This document shows positions 23,807 to 31,194 of a DNA stretch of 64,000 nucleotides, one piece after another. The position numbers were made by a program, and so were the translations under genes. How positions within the stretch are numbered: position 1 is the stretch's first letter; the number at the start of each line of letters is the position of its first letter. The DNA is from Betaproteobacteria bacterium (GTDB lineage: Bacteria; Pseudomonadota; Gammaproteobacteria; Burkholderiales; Burkholderiaceae_C), in NCBI GenBank assembly GCA_043743835.1, contig JAYTVT010000032.1, positions 7,599 through 71,598 on the forward strand, written 5' to 3'. Below the pieces are notes generated by a model. That model made no database searches. It had not been told where the DNA came from and saw only the letters and a program-made list of their open reading frames with translations.

Positions 23807-23821
23807 ATGCCACAATGGCAT
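23807..23821. promoter_or_regulatory. Candidate LysR recognition site (T-N11-A dyad)
   Basis: ATGCCA-CAA-TGGCAT perfect dyad, about 33 bp upstream of the LysR start, in the divergent promoter region. Confidence 0.6.
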
Positions 23822-23853
23822 GGCTGGCGCCAACGAATCGCCACCGGAACGCC

Positions 23854-24777
23854 ATGGACCTCAAACAGCTGCAGTACTTTGTCCAGGTGGCCGAGCTGGG
23901 TGGTTTCACCCGCGCGGCCAGCGTGTTGCGGGTGGCGCAGCCGGCCCTGAGCCGCCAGGTTCGCGCTTTGGAGGTCGAGCTGCGCCAGCGCCTGTTTGAC
24001 CGCAACGGGCGTGGCGTGACGCTGACCGCCGCCGGCACGCGCCTGCTGGCCCACGGCCGCGGCATCCTGCAGCAGGTGGAGCGCGCCCGCCTGGATCTGG
24101 AAGACCAGCGCGGCGCGGCCTCGGGTTTGTTGTCCATTGGCCTGCCGCCCAGCGTAAGCCGCACGCTGACCGCGCCGCTGGTCGAGGCCTTTCGCGAACG
24201 CTTTCCCCGGGCCACCCTCAGTGTGGTGGAAGGGCTGTCCACCTACACCTTGGAGTGGCTGGCCCAAGGGCGCATCGACTGCGCGGTGGTCTACAACGCC
24301 ACGCCAGCGGCGGCCATCGACCTGGTGCCCGTGCTGCAGGAGCCCCTGCTCCTGGTGTCGGCGCGCACCGCCCGTACCCCTGCGGCCTTCCGGGGTCCGG
24401 CAGTTTCGCTGGCACATCTGTCCACCAAGGAACTGGTCATACCCAGCCGCCCGCACGCCATCCGCATGCGCCTGGAAACGGTGATGGCCGAAGCCGGCTG
24501 CAAGCCGCTGGTGGGCTTGGAGATTGAAAGCGTGCCGGCCATGCTGGACCTGGTTCAGCGCCATGCGCTGCACGCGGTGCTCAGCCTCAACGCAGTGCGC
24601 GCCAGCGGGCGCGAGCAGGCCTTTGTGGTTCAGCCCATTGGCCTGGGCCCACGCCAATACCTCAGCACCAGCCTGTGGCTGGCCACTTCTGCGCTGAGGC
24701 CACGAGGCCCGCTGCTGGACCAAGCGACCCAGGTGCTGCTGGAACTGCTGCAGCAAACGCTGACCCCCAAGGCCTGA
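23854..24777 (+). CDS. LysR-family transcriptional regulator of the lig/pob operon
   Basis: MDLKQLQYF...FTRAA...AQPALSRQVRALE HTH; divergent from the operon. Confidence 0.93.
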   Translation: MDLKQLQYFVQVAELGGFTRAASVLRVAQPALSRQVRALEVELRQRLFDRNGRGVTLTAAGTRLLAHGRGILQQVERARLDLEDQRGAASGLLSIGLPPSVSRTLTAPLVEAFRERFPRATLSVVEGLSTYTLEWLAQGRIDCAVVYNATPAAAIDLVPVLQEPLLLVSARTARTPAAFRGPAVSLAHLSTKELVIPSRPHAIRMRLETVMAEAGCKPLVGLEIESVPAMLDLVQRHALHAVLSLNAVRASGREQAFVVQPIGLGPRQYLSTSLWLATSALRPRGPLLDQATQVLLELLQQTLTPKA

Positions 24778-24932
24778 TCCCGCCGGCAGCCACCCTTCAC
24801 CTGAAGGAGGCGGCGTCAACAAGGCCACACGGGATGCGCCTTTTTCAGGTCAATTGCTGCGTATGCTCTTCAAGGTGCACCGCAGGTGGTGTTCTGACCT
24901 GCCTGTCCTTCCAATTCACCGAGGAGCCCTTC

Positions 24933-26453
24933 TTGAAGCCCGCCCACACCATGTTGAAGCGCCTTGGCGCCTGCACCCTGGCCGCCGCAGCGGCACTGTT
25001 TTCTGTGGCCGCCCATGCCGAGAACCACGCCCTGATCATGTGGATCGGTGACTACGGCGACCCCAAGAACGACCTGCCCGGCATTGACCTGGACGCGGCC
25101 AACGCCCGCCTGATCGCCCAGGCCATGGGCGTGCCCGACCGCAACATCACCGAAATCAGCAACGCCCGGCTGACCAAAGAAGGCATGCGCAACGGCCTGG
25201 TCAAGCTCTACCAGACCATCAAGGACGGCGACAAGGTCTTCATCTATTACTCGGGCCATGGCGGTCAGGTGCAGGGCCACGAAACCAGCGCCAAGTGCAG
25301 TGAAGTGCTGGTGGCCCGCGATGGCCTGGTGCTGGATGCGTTCTTGCAAGACGCGCTGACCACCATTGGCAAGCGTGCCAGCCAGGTGGTGATGATCAAC
25401 GACTCGTGCTTCTCGGGCGGTGCCGCGACCAAGAGCGCACTGCCCAGCGGTGAACCCGGCGACCGGGCCAAGTTCATCGCGCCCGACGCCAAGGCCAACT
25501 CGGCGGTGACCCAGGGCTACGCCTGTGGTGACCCGACCAACACCACCAAGATCACCCGCAGCCTGGGGGCGATGAGCAAAGATGCCCGCGGCCCGCAGGT
25601 GCTTTACATCGCGGCGTCCAACGACACCCAGGTGTCTTTTGCCACGCCCAAGGGCAGCGTTGGCACGCTCGCCTTTGCGCATTGCATCGGTCTGGCCCAC
25701 GCCGATACCGACCGCAGTGGCCGCATCAACGGGGAAGAGCTGCGCGAGTGCGCGCAGGCCTACATCGACAAACGCCGAACCAAGCAGACCATCACCCTGC
25801 AAGGCAACGAACGTTTGCCGCTGTCGTTTGTCAAGGCTGAAGCACCAGCGCCTGCCGCGGCACCCGCTCCGGTGGTGGCCCCAGCCCCCGCAGCGGCGCC
25901 TGCGCCCACCGCGGCACCTGCGCCTGCAGTGGCGCCCGCTCCAACCGCGGCACCCGCACCGGCCACGGTCAATGCGGCCCAAGCCCTGCATGACCTGCAA
26001 GCCGGCGCTGACCGCAGCGTGCAAGTGCAGCTGGCCCTGGCGCGGTCCAGCTTGCGCATCGGCAAAGATTTGCTGGAGTTCACGGTGAGCACCGGTCGCG
26101 AGGGCTACCTTTACCTGCTGCAGGTGGGCAGCGACGGCAAGACCTTCAACCTGCTCTTTCCCAACAAGGTCGACGGTGAGAACTTTCTGCCGGCCGGCAC
26201 CCACCGCTTTCCGCGCCCCAGCTGGCGTTTGCGCGCCGGTGGGCCGGTGGGCAAGAGCCACGTGTTGGCCATTGTTTCGCCGGAGAAAAAGGACCTGTCA
26301 CGCGGCATGGACGGCTCTTCGGTCTTCCCATCCAGCAGCGCCAACCAGCGCAACACGCGCACGCTGGTGGTGGAAGCCACGGGTGCCGATGGCGGTGGCT
26401 CTGGACGTTATGGCGCCAGTCAGGTGCTGACGGTTACCGAGACCGCGGAATGA
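24933..26453 (+). CDS. Secreted caspase-family (C14, metacaspase-like) protease with EF-hand-like loop, Pro/Ala linker and DUF4384-like C-terminal domain
   Basis: Signal peptide ending AHA; His motif YYSGHG; Cys motif NDSCFSG; C-terminal GYLYLLQVGSDG...LLFPN. TTG start after GAGGAG; alternative ATG at 24951. Confidence 0.88.
   Translation: MKPAHTMLKRLGACTLAAAAALFSVAAHAENHALIMWIGDYGDPKNDLPGIDLDAANARLIAQAMGVPDRNITEISNARLTKEGMRNGLVKLYQTIKDGDKVFIYYSGHGGQVQGHETSAKCSEVLVARDGLVLDAFLQDALTTIGKRASQVVMINDSCFSGGAATKSALPSGEPGDRAKFIAPDAKANSAVTQGYACGDPTNTTKITRSLGAMSKDARGPQVLYIAASNDTQVSFATPKGSVGTLAFAHCIGLAHADTDRSGRINGEELRECAQAYIDKRRTKQTITLQGNERLPLSFVKAEAPAPAAAPAPVVAPAPAAAPAPTAAPAPAVAPAPTAAPAPATVNAAQALHDLQAGADRSVQVQLALARSSLRIGKDLLEFTVSTGREGYLYLLQVGSDGKTFNLLFPNKVDGENFLPAGTHRFPRPSWRLRAGGPVGKSHVLAIVSPEKKDLSRGMDGSSVFPSSSANQRNTRTLVVEATGADGGGSGRYGASQVLTVTETAE
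25842..25964 (+). repeat. Pro/Ala tandem repeat linker (about 18-bp period, APAPxx)
   Basis: APAPAAAPAPVVAPAPAAAPAPTAAPAPAVAPAPTAAPAPA within the caspase CDS. Confidence 0.8.
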
Positions 26454-27784
26454 AGGGCGGACGGCGACTGGCTTGTTTGCTGCGGGCCGGCATGATGGAT
26501 CCCCGATTCACGCTCCACAGGTCGTCGGCCGCAGCCGCGCTTGTGCTGCTTGGCTGGAGTCCCATGGCGGGCTCAACCTCTGCCGTTTTGCCGCCTGCCG
26601 TTTTGTCGCCTGCAGTAGCGAAGGCATCGGCGGCGGACAGCGGCTCACCTGCAGCCCTGGCCCTTGCGCTGGCCGACCTGGGCGGTTCCATGCTGAACCA
26701 GTCCAGCGCCGTCAACGCGGTGCAGTCGCCCGTGGCGACGGCCGTGGCCCTGGGCCTGGTTCAAGCGGGTGCCAACGGGCCGTCCGAACAAGAGATCGAG
26801 GCACTCTTTGGGCCCCGCCCTGAGGGCGGGCGGGCGCTGCGCCAGGGCTTGCCAAGCTTGCTGCGCCAGATGCAGGGCGAGCCCGGAACGGCCTCGCCCT
26901 TGGCGCTGGCGGCGCGCATGTGGGTGGATGAAAAAGCGGTTGTGCCCAAGGCCTACAGCCAGCGGCTGGCCAGCCGCTGGCAGGCTGACTCGCAGCGCCT
27001 GGCGTTTGCCCAAAGCGAGGCGGCGCGTGCGCAGATCAATGGCTGGACGGCCGAGCGCACCGCCGGTCGTGTCAAGGACCTCTTGCCGTCCGGCAGCATC
27101 CATTCGGCAACCCAGATGGCGTTGACCTCGGCGGTGCACTTTCGCAGCCCTTGGGAAAAGCCTTTTGACCCCGCACAGACCACAGCCCGTCCTTTCAAGA
27201 CCGCCGCCGGCGACAGCAAAACGGTGCCAACCATGGTGGACGAACGTGCCGTCCTGCAGACCCGGGCGGACGGCCACCTGGTGATGGAAATCCCCTTTGC
27301 CACGCCCGCGGGCCGGCCCGGCTTTGCGCTGCTCATCGCGGTGCCAGACGAGGGTGCAGCGGGCCGAACGGCAACCAGCTCGGGTGCGCAGCTGGCTCGC
27401 TGGCGGGCCAGCATGGCGCCCATCAAGTGCGAACTCAGCTTGCCTCGTTTTGCCATCGCACCGCAGTCGGGTTCACTCAAATCCGTGTTGCAGGGTCTGG
27501 GTGTGAAGACCGTTTTCACCGACCGAGCCGACCTGCGCCCGATGCTGGGTCGAGGCGCGCAGCTGATGCACTTGGATGACGTGCACCAGGCCGCGGGTAT
27601 CACCGTGGACGAGCAGGGCGGCGAGGCGGTGGCGGCAGCCGCTGCCACCGTGCGCAGCAAGTCCATCGCGCTGCCGGTGCCAGCCTGCGCGGTGGACCGG
27701 GCTTTCACGTTTGCCTTGGTACACCAAGCCAGCGGAGCGCCTTTGTTTGTGGGCCGGGTGGGCGACCCGGTGCTGGCACCTTGA
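26450..27784 (+). CDS. Serpin (serine/cysteine protease inhibitor), probably exported
   Basis: SP..A.ALGLV..GA.G, INGWTAERTAGRV, VHFRSPWEKPF, LPRF, hinge DEQGGEAVAAA, and DRAFTF...LFVGRV. ATGA overlap with the caspase stop; the real start may be ATG 26492/26495. Confidence 0.92.
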   Translation: MKGGRRLACLLRAGMMDPRFTLHRSSAAAALVLLGWSPMAGSTSAVLPPAVLSPAVAKASAADSGSPAALALALADLGGSMLNQSSAVNAVQSPVATAVALGLVQAGANGPSEQEIEALFGPRPEGGRALRQGLPSLLRQMQGEPGTASPLALAARMWVDEKAVVPKAYSQRLASRWQADSQRLAFAQSEAARAQINGWTAERTAGRVKDLLPSGSIHSATQMALTSAVHFRSPWEKPFDPAQTTARPFKTAAGDSKTVPTMVDERAVLQTRADGHLVMEIPFATPAGRPGFALLIAVPDEGAAGRTATSSGAQLARWRASMAPIKCELSLPRFAIAPQSGSLKSVLQGLGVKTVFTDRADLRPMLGRGAQLMHLDDVHQAAGITVDEQGGEAVAAAAATVRSKSIALPVPACAVDRAFTFALVHQASGAPLFVGRVGDPVLAP

Positions 27785-27858
27785 AGGCCAGCTGCTCACA
27801 GCCAGTTGCGGACCGACCTGCCGACTGACCTGCTGACAGGCGGTGGTGGTGCCCGAGT

Positions 27859-28686
27859 TCAGCGTGACGACGCTGGCAACGGGCACAGCGGGCCAGGGCA
27901 GGCTGCAATTTGTGCGGTGGCGTGTTGGTACCACAGGCTCCCGGCAGCAGACTGCGCTTGGGGTAGTCCTTCGCGCTCGGTCATGAACGCGGGCAGCAAG
28001 CGGCGGGCCACGGCTTGGCGTTCTTGCGTTGGCACGGCTTGCCACTGTGGGTCTTGCCAACGCCACAAGCGCCCGGCGGCGTAGGTGCCAGCGCCTCGAC
28101 CGGCTTCGCGCCCGTTTTGCCAGCCACTGTCCATCAAGCTGCACGCGGTGCGCCCGGGCTCTTGAACCAGGATGGTCAGCGACTGCCACTCGCTGACCCT
28201 GCGGCATGCTGGCGCAGTGGCGGGTCCGGCCAGCGGTTTGTCGGGGTTGACCACGCACAACTCGTGCGAACTGACGCCCAGCCCGTTGCTGATGCCCAGC
28301 AACCTGGCCACCAGCCAGCGCGGCCTGCCATCGTCCGATAGGTTGGCGGGAAGCACTTCAAAGGCTGCAGCGCCAGTCATGGGCGAGACCTCGGTTGGCC
28401 ACCGCTGCACCACCTGGCCACCATTGCGGTGTTGGTATTGCCAGGCTTGGGGGGTTTTGCAGGCACACAGCAGCTGTTCGCCAGCCGCCGCGCAGACCGC
28501 CCGGGCGCAGCCCTGCAGTTGGCGCGGCCGCGGTGGCTCCCAGCGGGGGCCGACGGTGCACATGCGGTCGGCCACGGCATCGGCTGGCGGTGCGGCCCAA
28601 GTGTTGGGCAAGCCGAGGGTCGCCGCAGCCGGCAGCCAACTGCAACGCCGCAGCCAAACGAACAGCTGGGCAGACGCTGTCGCCAT
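27859..28686 (-). CDS. Cys-rich hypothetical exported protein
   Basis: TGATG coupling to the upstream gene; putative leader ending TWA; several Cys pairs; no recognised family. Confidence 0.55.
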   Translation of the reverse strand: MATASAQLFVWLRRCSWLPAAATLGLPNTWAAPPADAVADRMCTVGPRWEPPRPRQLQGCARAVCAAAGEQLLCACKTPQAWQYQHRNGGQVVQRWPTEVSPMTGAAAFEVLPANLSDDGRPRWLVARLLGISNGLGVSSHELCVVNPDKPLAGPATAPACRRVSEWQSLTILVQEPGRTACSLMDSGWQNGREAGRGAGTYAAGRLWRWQDPQWQAVPTQERQAVARRLLPAFMTEREGLPQAQSAAGSLWYQHATAQIAACPGPLCPLPASSR

Positions 28687-29180
28687 CAAGGCGTCGCAGC
28701 GACTTTCTTGGTGTACTTGTCGTAAGCGTTGTCCATGGCGCGCAGCAGACGGTTCAAGGTGGTCTTGAAGTCGCCCGGCACGACCAAGAACATTTCGGCC
28801 GCAAAGGTGGGGTCGCCGTCACTGTCCAAAAAGGCCTTGATCACCTTGACTTCGTTGCTGGCGGTGTTGACGCCTTCCAGACGCCGAATGCGGGCCTGGG
28901 GCGATTTGTCATCAGCCGAAAAGGCCAGGACCATGCGGAAGTAGGTCGCATCGTCCGCGTCGACATAGATGACGTAAGAGCGGCCTTCGCGGCGGAAACG
29001 CACGTTGCCGTTTTGCGTCAACTCAGGACGAAACCCTTCGGTGGCCAGGAAGTCGGAATAGGTGGTTTGCAGCTGCTGCTTGGTGTAGGTCTGGGCCGAA
29101 GCGGCGCCAGCGCCCAAGGTCAGCGCGGCGCACAGGGCCAGCGGGCAGGCGAGTTGCGAGAACATGGATTTTTTGTTCAT
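28686..29180 (-). CDS. Exported protein, YbjN-like (type III chaperone-like fold)
   Basis: Signal peptide ending ASA; FLATEGFRPE...GNVRFRREG and KVIKAFLDSDGD resemble the YbjN pattern. Confidence 0.6.
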   Translation of the reverse strand: MNKKSMFSQLACPLALCAALTLGAGAASAQTYTKQQLQTTYSDFLATEGFRPELTQNGNVRFRREGRSYVIYVDADDATYFRMVLAFSADDKSPQARIRRLEGVNTASNEVKVIKAFLDSDGDPTFAAEMFLVVPGDFKTTLNRLLRAMDNAYDKYTKKVAATP

Positions 29181-29218: not shown

Positions 29219-30535
29219 TCAGAGTTTTTGCAAGGCGGCGCGTGCAAGGTCAACGTAGCGGCCGTTCGGGTAAGCGGCCAGGTAGGCTTCGTAGTCGGCC
29301 CGGCGCTTGCTGGTGGCGGCGCGGTCCCACAGCTCGAACTCTGCCTGCGGGTTGTGGGCTGCTGTGGGTTTGGGCGCGGCCACGGGCGCCGGTGCTGGTG
29401 CTGGGGCAGCAGCCATGCCCGCGATCTTGGTGCGGGCCTGGGGCGTGTAGCGGCCCTCAGGGTATTGCGACACGAACCGCTCCAGCGCGGCTCGGGTGCC
29501 CACTTTGACGGCGGCTTCCCAGTCGTCGAATTCGCGCTGCGGGCTGTAGCCACCTGGGGCAGGTGCTGGGGCCGGCGCCGGCGAAGGTGCCGGTGGCCTG
29601 ACCACAGGCGCCGGGGCCGGCGACGGTGGCGGTGGCGCGCTGAAGACAGGCGCCGGCGCAGGGGCTGGGCTCGGGGGCGCGAACACCGGGGCCGGCGCAG
29701 TTGACGGAATGGCTGAGCCGCTGGGGTAGAAGAAAAAGTCGGTCGACGACTCGTCCACCAGTGACGGCCGTTGCGCATGGTTGACGCTGGCCGCCGCCGT
29801 TTCCACACTGAGCTTGACCCGCTTGAGCATGTCGCCGGCCGACAAGCCCGGGTTGCGGATCTGTTTGATCAGTTCACGGGTAAACAGACCATTGGGCACC
29901 GTGTCGGCGTTGTTCAGGCGGTCCAGCGCTTCTTGCCCCTTGGACGCGGCCATGATGATCATGCTGCCCTTGGGAGGCTCGATGCGCCCCAGCCCAGAGC
30001 CCGGCGGCAAGGACCGGCCGTTGGTGGTTTCGCGGAAAGGGTCGTTGCGACAGGCGTCGATGATGACCAGCGAAAAGCGGGCGCGCTTATTCAGGTCGTC
30101 AACCAGTTGCTCCAGCGACAGCCCGTCGCGCGAAATGGCCCGTTCGCCGGTGACCTTGATGTCCACGGGCAGCAGGAAGGGCCCCATCTGCGGCGGCTGC
30201 GAACCGTGGCCGGAAAAAAAGAAGACCACCTCATCGCCTTTGTCGATGCGGCGCAAAAAACCATCGAGCTGGTCGTTCAAACCGTCTCGCGTGGCGTCCA
30301 GCACCCGGGTGACCTTGAAGCCGGCAGCCTCAAGTTCCCGGGCCAGCGACTGCGCGTCGTTGCGTGCATTGCGCAACTTGGTGATGCTGGTGTAGTTGTC
30401 GTTGCCCACCACCATGGCCAGGCGCGCCGCCTGGGCTTGCAACAGCAGGCAGGCGGCTGCAACCGCCGTGCTCAGCACCAGGCGTGGCAGGCGGGGGGCT
30501 TTGGCGAACCTGGGCGCCAGCCGTTGGGAACTCAT
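29219..30535 (-). CDS. Secreted caspase-family (C14, p20-type) protease with Pro-rich linker and two C-terminal helical repeats
   Basis: Signal peptide ending AQA; RLAMVVGNDNY, LRNARNDA, FFSGHG (His), IIDACRND (Cys), NGLFT; repeats EF..W...YP.GRY...AR. Confidence 0.9.
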   Translation of the reverse strand: MSSQRLAPRFAKAPRLPRLVLSTAVAAACLLLQAQAARLAMVVGNDNYTSITKLRNARNDAQSLARELEAAGFKVTRVLDATRDGLNDQLDGFLRRIDKGDEVVFFFSGHGSQPPQMGPFLLPVDIKVTGERAISRDGLSLEQLVDDLNKRARFSLVIIDACRNDPFRETTNGRSLPPGSGLGRIEPPKGSMIIMAASKGQEALDRLNNADTVPNGLFTRELIKQIRNPGLSAGDMLKRVKLSVETAAASVNHAQRPSLVDESSTDFFFYPSGSAIPSTAPAPVFAPPSPAPAPAPVFSAPPPPSPAPAPVVRPPAPSPAPAPAPAPGGYSPQREFDDWEAAVKVGTRAALERFVSQYPEGRYTPQARTKIAGMAAAPAPAPAPVAAPKPTAAHNPQAEFELWDRAATSKRRADYEAYLAAYPNGRYVDLARAALQKL

Positions 30536-31194
30536 TGCGGGGCCTTTCTGATTTCAACGCGGCGGTGCGTGCCGCTGGTGTCCTTGTTGTCGGCCAGCAG
30601 CCGGGTACTACCAAAACCGTAGGCCGACAGGCGCGGCTCGGCCACGCCCTTGGCCATCAGGTAGCGGCGCACGGCCAGCGCACGGGCACATGACAACTCC
30701 AGGTTGATGCGGGCGTCGCCGGTGGTGTCGGTGTGGCCGGCCACCGCAAAGCTGTCGCTGGCCAGTTCAGGGCGCTTGAGGGCTGCGGCCAAGGTGTCCA
30801 GCAGCGCGCGGTCGGGCGCGGTGAGTTTGTCCGACGCGTTGGCAAACTGCACGCTCAGGTTGACGCCAGGCGTGGTGTCGCCAGCGTAGGGCACGACTTC
30901 CAGGTTGCGCTTGTTGGATCCGGAAGGGGCGGCCGGGTTTGCAGCGGCAGGGGCTGCTTGTTCAGCGCACAGGCTGGACCCCACGTCGGGCAATTGGGTG
31001 CGTTTGAAGGACCGTGTGGCGGGCCCGCTGCTCAGCGCGTTGACGAGTGCGTCCACCGTGGTCTGGCTCATCGGCTGCTGGGCGTCGGCGGGCAAGCTGA
31101 CCGCCAACAAGGCCGCCAGGCCGACCGACACGACTGCCGTCGGCAAGGGCCAACGCGAGACAGCGGCAAGAAAGTGCAGGTGTTTGGCGGTCAT
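30532..31194 (-). CDS. OmpA-family peptidoglycan-binding domain protein, exported
   Basis: Signal peptide; VQFANAS, AGHTDTTG, NLELSCARA and RRVEI motifs; ATGA overlap with the caspase start. Confidence 0.9.
   Translation of the reverse strand: MTAKHLHFLAAVSRWPLPTAVVSVGLAALLAVSLPADAQQPMSQTTVDALVNALSSGPATRSFKRTQLPDVGSSLCAEQAAPAAANPAAPSGSNKRNLEVVPYAGDTTPGVNLSVQFANASDKLTAPDRALLDTLAAALKRPELASDSFAVAGHTDTTGDARINLELSCARALAVRRYLMAKGVAEPRLSAYGFGSTRLLADNKDTSGTHRRVEIRKAPQ

What the first reader, a model, noticed from the sequence alone, without database searches (positions are those of the whole stretch)
27611..27670. Serpin reactive-centre loop has an inhibitory hinge and P1 Lys, matching the expected specificity of the adjacent metacaspase
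Seen: the RCL reads E-Q-G-G-E-A-V-A-A-A-A-A-T-V-R-S-K-S-I. Counting from the hinge Glu as P17, as in alpha1-antitrypsin (EKGTEAAGAMFLEAIPM-SI), puts Lys-Ser at P1-P1', with Arg at P3 as an alternative site. Small residues at P12-P9 indicate an inhibitory serpin; P14 is Gly rather than the usual Thr/Ser. Established: metacaspases and orthocaspases cut after Arg/Lys using acidic S1 residues, and caspase A has Asp at the matching positions (GIDLDA and NDSC). Inference: the serpin is tuned to the protease encoded immediately upstream.
Basis: partly seen in the sequence, partly recalled or inferred. Interest (0 to 1): 0.82.

Follow-up and report, generated by a model that had tools for sequence, protein, structure and literature searches.

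The report
Lysine-bait serpin paired with bacterial caspase
An exported bacterial protease inhibitor (a serpin) whose bait residue is always lysine sits directly after the gene for an exported caspase-like protease predicted to cut after lysine or arginine, so it is probably that protease's built-in inhibitor, a pairing so far shown only in plants and algae.

Summary
Window 27611-27670 encodes the reactive-centre loop of a real serpin (26450-27784, Pfam 2.6e-69). Canonical counting, and alignment to PAI-1, both put Lys404-Ser405 at P1-P1'.

- P1 Lys is invariant in 118 of 118 homologues, while P3 and P2 vary freely.
- The serpin lies at most about 50 nt downstream of, or overlapping, a Peptidase_C14-DUF4384 gene ("caspase A") in about 35 loci. 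These span 33-100% serpin identity and 40-72% GC, with rearranged surroundings.
- Caspase A keeps its His-Cys dyad and both acidic S1 residues.
- In 61 genomes of the genus, serpin and caspase A orthologue co-occur, adjacent, in 7 of 7 genomes and in 0 of 54 others.
- All caspase-adjacent serpins have Lys or Arg at or next to P1. Only 1 of 14 non-adjacent serpins does.
- The linked serpins form one clade marked by a covarying Cys pair.

Caveats:
- Two distant modules also carry Asp189 trypsins.
- One genome has caspase A but no serpin.
- Two subfamily members of unknown context lack a basic P1.
- P14 Gly is atypical.

No paper in the searched library describes this pairing. Earlier notes of this scan report similar serpin-protease pairs on other DNA. 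I rate it a new variant of a known kind.

The parts
24951..26453 (+). Caspase A: exported Peptidase_C14 protease, Pro/Ala-rich linker, C-terminal DUF4384. His103 at 25257-25259, Cys153 at 25407-25409. Acidic S1 candidates Asp48 (25092-25094) and Asp151 (25401-25403). Conserved basic sites Lys161 (25431-25433) and Arg203 (25557-25559).
   Evidence: Pfam PF00656 2.5e-13 and PF14326 1.8e-16. Alignment to AtMC4 6w8s. Dyad motifs conserved in 26 orthologues. Coordinates. The longest ORF starts at 24675; I chose the start at 24951 because the signal-peptide-like N-terminus is shared by the orthologues.
26450..27784 (+). Serpin, 444 aa, with an N-terminal signal-peptide-like leader. Its ATG overlaps the caspase A stop codon (ATGA).
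   Evidence: Pfam PF00079 2.6e-69. 110 PDB serpin sequences match at E <= 1e-20. AF2 model has pTM 0.76. Overlap seen. Leaders are present in all 28 aligned homologues.
27611..27670 (+). Reactive-centre loop, P17 Glu388 to P3' Ala407. P1 Lys404 at 27659-27661 and P1' Ser405 at 27662-27664.
   Evidence: In the AF2 model residues 399-411 have pLDDT below 50, as expected for a flexible loop.
27428..27430 (+). Cys327, one half of a covarying Cys pair. It lies in the stretch that corresponds, by my manual comparison with alpha1-antitrypsin, to strand s2C.
   Evidence: Invariant in A1 and A3. Co-occurs with Cys413: 43 sequences have both, 77 neither, 2 only one.
27686..27688 (+). Cys413, the other half of the pair, just after the loop in the stretch that corresponds to s1C.
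29219..30535 (-). Caspase B: a second exported Peptidase_C14 protease (His110 at 30206-30208, Cys162 at 30050-30052) with a Pro/Ala linker and two C-terminal repeats.
   Evidence: Pfam PF00656 3.8e-31. Conserved downstream of the serpin in most related loci but missing in L017 and L032. Coordinates.
30532..31194 (-). Protein with an OmpA-type peptidoglycan-binding domain; first gene of the convergent operon, overlapping caspase B by 4 bp.
   Evidence: Pfam PF00691 2.4e-20. An OmpA-domain gene recurs in distant modules L033, L037, L040, L042, L035 and L070.
28686..29180 (-). YbjN-like small exported protein, 164 aa.
   Evidence: Pfam PF10722 5.6e-05, 23.8 bits against a cut-off of 22. Conserved in most related loci. 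A YbjN gene also follows the serpin in L054.
27859..28689 (-). Cys-rich 276-aa protein of unknown family; last gene of the convergent operon.
   Evidence: No Pfam or NCBIfam hit. Homologues at 49-53% identity at the same position in L013, L015, L016, L034 and L056 only.
23815..24777 (+). LysR-family regulator directly upstream, on the same strand. It may or may not regulate the pair.
   Evidence: Pfam HTH_1 and LysR_substrate. Syntenic in the Rubrivivax-like loci, but ECF sigma-factor genes take its place in L037 and L039.

Best explanation
Caspase A and the serpin form a co-transcribed, co-exported protease-inhibitor pair in the cell envelope.

Shown:
- Both genes carry Sec-type leaders, and their coding regions overlap (ATGA).
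- Caspase A has an intact His-Cys dyad and the two acidic positions that in metacaspases line the S1 pocket.
- The serpin has an inhibitory-type hinge and an invariant Lys-Ser at P1-P1'.
- The pairing is conserved and the two genes co-occur.

Inferred mechanism:
- Active caspase A takes the loop as a substrate.
- Its Cys153 attacks the Lys404-Ser405 bond and forms a thioacyl intermediate.
- The cleaved loop inserts into sheet A and drags the protease into an inactive, distorted state. This is suicide-substrate, cross-class inhibition, as in AtSerpin1 with metacaspase 9.

Inferred roles:
- The serpin sets a threshold against premature or misplaced caspase activity in the periplasm.
- Caspase B may be a second target.
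- The covarying Cys327-Cys413 pair would tie strand s1C to s2C by a disulfide in the oxidising periplasm and hold the serpin in its active form.
For: - Identity of the parts.
- P1 register: the canonical P17 count, plus the PAI-1 alignment.
- P1 Lys in 118 of 118 homologues at 52-86% identity, with P3 at 2.55 bits and P2 at 1.72 bits.
- Synteny of LysR, caspase A, serpin and the convergent OmpA-caspase B operon in 23 genome loci.
- The pairing survives rearrangement: L032 has two C14-DUF4384 genes and then the serpin. L033 has the serpin heading an operon with three C14 genes.
- Distant members at 33-43% identity and 40-71% GC still lie 3-49 nt after a C14 or C14-DUF4384 gene. In L036 the serpin follows a gene whose end matches the DUF4384 part of caspase A. 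G164 has the same layout.
- In 61 genomes of the genus the serpin is in 7, and a caspase A orthologue of at least 48% identity is in the same 7, adjacent. The 34-37% paralogues occur without a serpin.
- Dyad motifs and both Asp positions are conserved in 26 orthologues. They align to AtMC4. TbMCA2 Asp95 and Asp211 are described as S1-pocket residues in PMC4357240.
- Orthocaspases cut after basic residues (abstract of PMC6426788).
- Serpins not next to C14 mostly lack a basic P1: 13 of 14.
- The own genome has one serpin, 11 C14 matches and no Asp189-type trypsin; its four PF00089 hits all carry the GNSGG motif, which I take to be the HtrA type.
- Precedent: AtSerpin1 with AtMC9 and AtMC1, and CrSERPIN with CrMCA-I (PMC10609998).
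Against: - There is no biochemical evidence.
- A basic P1 equally fits trypsin-like serine proteases, and two distant modules contain Asp189 trypsins: L040 as a separate gene, L070 fused to C14-DUF4384 directly upstream of the serpin.
- G026, a complete genome, has an intact caspase A-type gene followed by an IS transposase, and no serpin was found there. The serpin is therefore dispensable at least there.
- Two members of the Cys-pair subfamily (P0154, P0163) have Val at the counted P1, and P0154 has no basic residue in its loop. Their upstream context is unknown.
- P14 Gly departs from the usual Thr/Ser, and no solved serpin seen here has it.
- Most supporting loci are related to each other, so the counts are not independent.
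- A stoichiometric, co-exported suicide inhibitor leaves open how the protease ever becomes active.
- The AF2 model draws residues 390-399 as a strand, as if already inserted. This may be a modelling artefact.
Confidence: 0.6

Rival explanations
1. The serpin's real target is a trypsin-like serine protease. This could be an exogenous one from competitors, predators or a host, or a module partner that was lost in this lineage. The caspase genes would then be neighbours for another reason, for instance a shared envelope proteolysis module.
For: - Serine proteases are the canonical serpin targets.
- P1 Lys-Ser suits Asp189 trypsins.
- L070 has a Trypsin-C14-DUF4384 fusion directly upstream of its serpin, and L040 has a secreted Asp189 trypsin two genes downstream.
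- L051 shows a Lys-P1 serpin with no C14 neighbour.
- An earlier scan note (e1-3734399) reports another bacterial serpin that always follows a trypsin-like gene.
Against: - A trypsin gene is found in only 2 of about 37 modules, and in none of the 64-kb window.
- The own genome's four PF00089 hits all carry GNSGG, not the GDSGGP/Asp189 motif.
- The invariant partner across 33-100% identity is the C14-DUF4384 gene, with coupling of 50 nt or less.
- Co-occurrence with caspase A is 7 of 7 against 0 of 54.
Confidence: 0.2
2. Caspase B, the convergent C14 protease, or the many other C14 paralogues of the genome are the physiological targets. The position after caspase A would only reflect co-regulation.
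For: - Caspase B also has the dyad, the D-A-C and N-D motifs and a signal peptide.
- It is conserved next to the serpin in most related loci.
- The genome has 11 C14 matches but one serpin.
Against: - L017 and L032 keep caspase A and the serpin but show no caspase B in the available flank.
- In distant modules the gene immediately upstream is nearly always the C14-DUF4384 type with the N-D-S-C-F-S-G-G motif.
- Genomes that have only the caspase A paralogues lack the serpin.
Confidence: 0.1
3. The serpin is not an inhibitor. It could be a substrate, a chaperone or a carrier that the caspase cuts at Lys404 to change its state.
For: - P14 Gly is atypical for inhibitory serpins.
- AF2 draws the hinge as an inserted strand.
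- Non-inhibitory serpins exist; ovalbumin is among the PDB hits.
Against: - P17 Glu, P15 Gly, P12 Ala, P9 Ala and P7 Ala are invariant, and P12-P9 are small residues, which is the pattern needed for fast loop insertion.
- More distant C14-linked members have Thr, Ala or Val at P14.
Confidence: 0.07
4. The adjacency is inherited synteny without a functional link.
For: Most loci come from one clade of related metagenome-assembled genomes.
Against: - The linkage persists at 33-43% identity, across 40-72% GC, with different flanking genes and after rearrangement.
- The distribution within the genus is patchy but strictly joint.
- The start and stop codons overlap.
Confidence: 0.03

Closest known systems
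AtSerpin1 with metacaspases AtMC9 and AtMC1 (Arabidopsis), and CrSERPIN with CrMCA-I (Chlamydomonas)
   Same: A serpin is reported to inhibit an Arg/Lys-specific family C14 cysteine protease (PMC10609998 table 2). That AtSerpin1 has a basic P1 (Arg) is my own knowledge. The predicted logic here is the same: the bait residue matches the acidic S1 pocket.
   Different: Those pairs are eukaryotic and their genes are unlinked. Here the pair is bacterial, both proteins carry export signals, and the genes overlap in one operon. P1 is Lys, P14 is Gly, and the serpin clade has its own covarying Cys pair. Nothing has been tested biochemically here.
CrmA (cowpox) with caspases 1 and 8
   Same: Cross-class inhibition of a clan CD caspase-fold cysteine protease by a serpin whose P1 matches the protease's specificity (own knowledge; cited in the reference list of PMC8233489).
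   Different: CrmA has P1 Asp and is a viral, host-directed inhibitor. This serpin has P1 Lys and is encoded next to its presumed target.
Bacterial protease-inhibitor operons: staphopain with staphostatin, and KLIKK proteases with potempins in Tannerella (own knowledge, not checked here)
   Same: A protease gene is followed by a co-transcribed cognate inhibitor gene that protects the producer.
   Different: Those inhibitors have different folds and work by tight binding, not as serpins. Staphostatins are cytoplasmic.
Characterised bacterial serpins: miropin (5ncs), tengpin (2vh4), thermopin-type (1sng), chloropin, siropins
   Same: Same fold; all appear among the sequence matches to solved structures.
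   Different: These were studied against exogenous or host serine proteases. In the library searched I found no report of a linked cognate protease. Miropin has Thr at P14. None shows the Cys pair or C14 linkage.
Earlier notes of this scan on other DNA: e1-4095077 (serpin among caspases, Arg at or next to P1), e1-1508560 (Lys-P1 serpin beside a C11 peptidase), e1-3734399 (serpin after a trypsin-like gene)
   Same: Each reports a bacterial serpin next to a protease whose specificity fits the predicted P1.
   Different: They concern other genomes, and in two cases other protease families. I did not examine those loci.

Membership tests
Serpin superfamily (Pfam PF00079, MEROPS I4) | Full-length match to the serpin domain model and fold | tested here: met
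   PF00079 E 2.6e-69, 234.7 bits against a cut-off of 27, model positions 13-370 of 370. 110 PDB serpin sequences match at E <= 1e-20. AF2 pTM 0.76, with the expected order of helices and strands.
Inhibitory serpins | Hinge consensus: P17 Glu, P15 Gly, P14 small and uncharged (usually Thr/Ser), P12-P9 short side chains | tested here: met
   P17 Glu, P15 Gly, P12 Ala and P9 Ala are invariant; P11 is Val and P10 Ala. P14 is Gly, which is small and uncharged but not the usual Thr/Ser, and is invariant in 118 homologues. More distant C14-linked members have Thr, Ala or Val there.
Inhibitory serpins | Forms a covalent or kinetically trapped 1:1 complex with a target protease after cleavage at P1-P1' | not testable with these tools
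   This needs purified proteins.
Peptidase family C14 (caspase, metacaspase, orthocaspase) - caspase A | Caspase-domain match with the catalytic His and Cys in their motifs | tested here: met
   PF00656 E 2.5e-13, 50.7 bits against a cut-off of 21.4. His103 lies in Y-Y-S-G-H-G-G and Cys153 in N-D-S-C-F-S-G-G, both conserved in 26 orthologues and aligned to the AtMC4 dyad region.
Arg/Lys-specific metacaspase or orthocaspase type | Acidic residues at the two S1-pocket positions (TbMCA2 Asp95 on helix 1 and Asp211 two residues before the catalytic Cys; PMC4357240) | tested here: met
   Asp48 aligns to the Asp of the AtMC4 N-D motif. Asp151 aligns to the Asp of S-D-S-C. Both are invariant in the orthologue alignment. 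The actual specificity was not measured.
Orthocaspase in the strict sense | Lacks a p10 domain | not tested
   The C14 model is matched only to position 191 of 233. The conserved stretch after the linker was not compared with p10 models.
Cognate protease-inhibitor operon | Conserved adjacency and co-occurrence of protease and inhibitor genes beyond close relatives | tested here: met
   One exception is G026, which has caspase A without a serpin and an IS transposase at that position.

The most novel reading that the evidence does not exclude
These operons encode an envelope-located caspase-serpin "set-point" switch. The exported orthocaspase would be an executioner or remodelling protease held in check by a disulfide-locked suicide inhibitor. 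Depleting the serpin (by stress, or by a phage or competitor protease) would release caspase activity, giving programmed envelope proteolysis or cell death. Serpin control of metacaspase-type proteases would then be a prokaryotic invention, or a striking convergence, and not a plant and algal speciality.
Probability: 0.2. Interest if true: 0.85.

Novelty: new variant of a known kind. Interest (0 to 1): 0.6.

Why it matters
Bacterial caspase homologues are widespread, but their regulation and purpose are largely unknown. The main survey of prokaryotic caspase homologues never mentions serpins (PMC3501461). Most bacterial serpins, in turn, have no known natural target. A conserved, translationally coupled pair with matching bait residue and S1 pocket offers both families a concrete hypothesis that can be tested in vitro. 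It also defines a recognisable serpin subfamily (Cys pair, Lys-Ser bait, C14-DUF4384 neighbour) for annotation. If confirmed, serpin-metacaspase control, known from Arabidopsis and Chlamydomonas, would extend to bacteria. That bears on how regulated proteolysis and cell-death machinery evolved.

Tried and rejected
- **Metagenome scan, diverse alignment.** A narrower alignment returned only 14 mostly short loci. Those gave extra positives (L056-L058, L060) and negatives (L062-L068), but no large sample.
- **Context of the two subfamily members without a basic P1.** For P0154 and P0163 the contigs end at or just before the serpin, so caspase adjacency could not be decided.
- **Is the Cys-rich 276-aa neighbour a hidden trypsin?** It has no Pfam or NCBIfam hit and shows neither of the typical serine-protease motifs (the His motif or the G-D-S-G-G motif) when read by eye. 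Rejected.
- **Endogenous trypsin target.** The four PF00089 matches in the genome all carry GNSGG and lie on other contigs. This makes an endogenous trypsin target unlikely.
- **A characterised serpin with Gly at P14.** None was seen; miropin and the other best PDB matches have Thr.
- **Promoter and terminator scan of 24600-28000.** Nothing above the shuffled background.
- **Literature.** Searches for serpin with orthocaspase, metacaspase plus prokaryote, DUF4384, and gene neighbourhood found no description of this pairing. Subscription-only papers were not covered.
- **Disulfide geometry.** It could not be measured, because the structure tool returns no coordinates.
Full report
**1. What is at the coordinates**

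The window is GC-rich. The ORF at 26450-27784 (+) encodes a 444-aa protein. It matches the Pfam serpin model over almost its full length (E 2.6e-69) and matches 110 solved serpin sequences at E <= 1e-20.

- Counting Glu388 as P17 gives Lys404 (27659-27661) as P1 and Ser405 as P1'.
- The HMMER alignment to zebrafish PAI-1 puts Lys404 opposite the PAI-1 Arg that precedes Met, without a gap on the N-terminal side of the loop. That this Arg-Met is the PAI-1 scissile bond is my own knowledge.
- An AlphaFold2 model built on 28 homologues has pTM 0.76 and the expected serpin secondary structure. Residues 399-411, which include P1, are the only internal stretch with pLDDT below 50, as expected for a mobile loop.
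- The model draws residues 390-399 as a strand. I treat that as a possible artefact.

**2. The neighbours**

- **Caspase A.** The gene ending at 26453 overlaps the serpin start (ATGA). It encodes a signal peptide, a Peptidase_C14 domain, a Pro/Ala-rich linker and DUF4384. His103 and Cys153 sit in the usual motifs. In the alignment to Arabidopsis metacaspase 4, Asp48 and Asp151 fall on the Asp residues of that enzyme's N-D and S-D-S-C motifs. The equivalent TbMCA2 residues, Asp95 and Asp211, are described as S1-pocket residues (PMC4357240).
- **Convergent operon.** On the other strand lie an OmpA-domain protein, a second C14 protease (caspase B), a weakly YbjN-like protein and a Cys-rich protein of unknown family.
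- **Export.** All six products begin with signal-peptide-like leaders. The serpin leader is present in all 28 aligned homologues.
- **Rest of the genome.** The genome holding the window (104 contigs, 88% complete) has one serpin and 11 C14 matches.

**3. Is the bait residue conserved?**

A search of the 5.8-billion-protein collection returned 120 listed homologues at 52-86% identity.

- After removing the window's own fragment, one truncated sequence and one frameshifted sequence, P1 is Lys in 118 of 118.
- P3 (R, Q, K, V, S, A, G, L) has 2.55 bits of entropy and P2 (S, A, P, G) has 1.72 bits.
- P17, P15, P14, P12, P9 and P7 are invariant.

The Lys is.

**4. Is the caspase adjacency conserved?**

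- **Species genomes.** A scan of one genome per species found 25 loci, all in Rubrivivax-like Burkholderiales metagenome-assembled genomes. Wherever the flank allows, the order is LysR, caspase A, serpin, then the convergent OmpA-caspase B operon.
- **Divergent loci.** L032 (40% identity) has two C14-DUF4384 genes, then the serpin, then an RHS protein. L033 (42%) has the serpin heading a one-strand operon of C14-FGE-sulfatase, DUF4384, OmpA, C14-DUF4384 and C14. Both keep Lys at P1.
- **Distant representatives.** I searched 1.84 billion cluster representatives and looked up contexts.
  - Members at 33-43% identity, from contigs of 41-71% GC with unrelated flanking genes, lie 3-49 nt after a C14 or C14-DUF4384 gene: L037, L039, L040 and L042.
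  - In L036 the serpin follows a gene whose end matches the DUF4384 part of caspase A, and a C14 gene follows the serpin.
  - G164, a 40%-GC genome of the same family, has the same layout with Lys-Ser at P1-P1'.
- **Invariant core.** The caspase A orthologues all keep Y-Y-S-G-H-G and N-D-S-C-F-S-G-G. Caspase A plus serpin is the invariant core. L017 and L032 show no caspase B in the available flank.

**5. Co-occurrence**

- **Genus sample.** In 61 genomes of the window's genus, the serpin is present in seven. A caspase A orthologue of at least 48% identity is present in exactly those seven, on the same contig and adjacent. The 34-37% paralogues occur in twelve other genomes without a serpin.
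- **Family sample.** With one genome per genus (201 genomes), the serpin is rare: G000 and G164 only.
- **The exception.** G026, a complete genome, has five tandem C14 genes. The last is an intact caspase A type at 44% identity. It is followed by an IS transposase gene instead of a serpin, and no serpin was found in that genome. The serpin is therefore not indispensable.

**6. Controls**

- **Phylum sample.** Among 400 genomes of the phylum, six others have a serpin. Five of these are not near any C14 gene. Their counted P1 residues are Glu, Thr, Gly, Gly and Thr, the last with Arg at P2.
- **G325.** The sixth genome is a separate, non-Cys-pair serpin lineage. It again lies directly after C14 genes and has Arg-Ser at the position one before the counted P1.
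- **Other non-adjacent serpins.** Nine more from metagenomes have P1 Lys (L051), Thr, Val, Thr, Gln, Thr, Ser, Thr and Thr.
- **Total.** All of about 35 C14-adjacent serpins have Lys or Arg at or next to P1, against 1 of 14 non-adjacent ones. The loci are related to each other, so this is a description and not a statistical test.

**7. A defined subfamily**

- Cys327 and Cys413 covary among 122 representatives: 43 have both, 77 neither, 2 only one.
- The sequences that carry both form a single clade in a FastTree of 118 representatives (40 of 40 tips, support 0.87).
- 41 of 43 have Lys or Arg at the aligned P1.
- The two exceptions, P0154 and P0163, have Val at the counted P1. Their contigs stop at the serpin, so whether a caspase precedes them is unknown. 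P0154 is followed by a YbjN-like gene, as in this window's module.
- By manual comparison with alpha1-antitrypsin, the two Cys residues fall in strands s2C and s1C. A disulfide there would pin s1C and disfavour the latent transition. This is inference; no coordinates were available.

**8. The main rival**

Two distant modules include true trypsins with the D-x-C-Q-G-D-S-G-G-P motif. In L040 it is a separate secreted gene. In L070 it is fused as Trypsin-C14-DUF4384 directly upstream of the serpin. A basic P1 fits those too.

- No such gene occurs in the other loci, about 35 in number, or anywhere in the 64-kb window.
- The genome's four PF00089 matches all carry GNSGG, which I take to be the HtrA type.

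I therefore keep the serine-protease reading as a 0.2 rival, and not as the main explanation.

**9. A suggestive detail**

In the caspase A alignment, a basic residue followed by Ser is conserved 8 residues after the catalytic Cys, and again about 50 residues after it in 25 of 26 sequences (Lys161 and Arg203 here). These resemble the serpin's Lys-Ser-hydrophobic bait. The loop may mimic the protease's own processing sites. This is unproven.

**10. Comparison with what is known**

- Serpin inhibition of metacaspases is established for AtSerpin1 (AtMC9, AtMC1) and CrSERPIN (PMC10609998).
- Orthocaspases cut after basic residues (PMC6426788 abstract).
- The survey of prokaryotic caspase homologues lists OmpA among operon partners, and one Rhizobium operon with an unnamed protease-inhibition function. 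It never mentions serpins (PMC3501461).
- The serpin superfamily phylogeny paper cites metacaspases only for plants (PMC8233489).
- No paper in the searched library links a bacterial serpin with a caspase homologue.
- Earlier notes of this scan report comparable pairs on other DNA.

**11. Verdict**

I rate it a new variant of a known kind: an operon-encoded, exported bacterial version of serpin-metacaspase control. My confidence that a neighbouring caspase homologue is the natural target is about 0.6 for caspase A, plus 0.1 for caspase B or other paralogues.

Noticed in passing
window 27428-27430 and 27686-27688: Two Cys residues of the serpin (327 and 413) covary across representatives: 43 have both, 77 neither, 2 only one. 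They mark the caspase-linked clade. They may form a periplasmic disulfide tying strand s1C to s2C.
   Followed up: partly
window 25431-25433 and 25557-25559: Caspase A has conserved basic-then-Ser sites 8 and 50 residues after the catalytic Cys. They resemble the serpin's Lys-Ser bait and could be autoprocessing sites that the loop mimics.
   Followed up: partly
L070 4205-6754 (G325): A single 849-aa exported protein fuses an Asp189 trypsin domain, a C14 caspase domain and DUF4384. It is followed by a serpin and then a protein-kinase-domain protein, and preceded by a DUF4384-TPR-OmpA protein and another C14 gene.
   Followed up: partly
L075 8254-17139 (G026): Five C14 genes lie in tandem on one strand; one is fused to a solute-binding domain. 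The row ends with a caspase A-type gene followed by an IS (rve) transposase where the serpin would be.
   Followed up: partly
L030 8437-9878; also G211, G218, G223: In some relatives the C14 part and the DUF4384 part of caspase A match in different reading frames. They may be split genes, or frameshifts in the Pro/Ala-rich linker. In L033 and L037 DUF4384 also occurs as a separate 180-aa gene.
   Followed up: no
L033 11214-13157: A C14 caspase domain is fused to an FGE-sulfatase (formylglycine-generating enzyme-like) domain directly after the serpin.
   Followed up: no
window 27859-28689: The Cys-rich 276-aa protein has no family match. It is conserved at 49-53% identity in only five related loci and absent from the others.
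   Followed up: partly
serpin residues 390-399 (window 27617-27646): AlphaFold2 draws the hinge (P15-P6) as a beta strand next to s5A, as in a loop-inserted state, while residues 399-411 are disordered.
   Followed up: no
L037 3631-4422 and L039 4197-4820: In distant modules an ECF-type sigma-70 gene takes the place of the LysR gene near the caspase-serpin pair. This hints at envelope-stress control.
   Followed up: no
L032 5798-7165: An RHS-repeat/DUF6531 protein lies directly downstream of the serpin in this locus, in place of the convergent caspase B operon.
   Followed up: no
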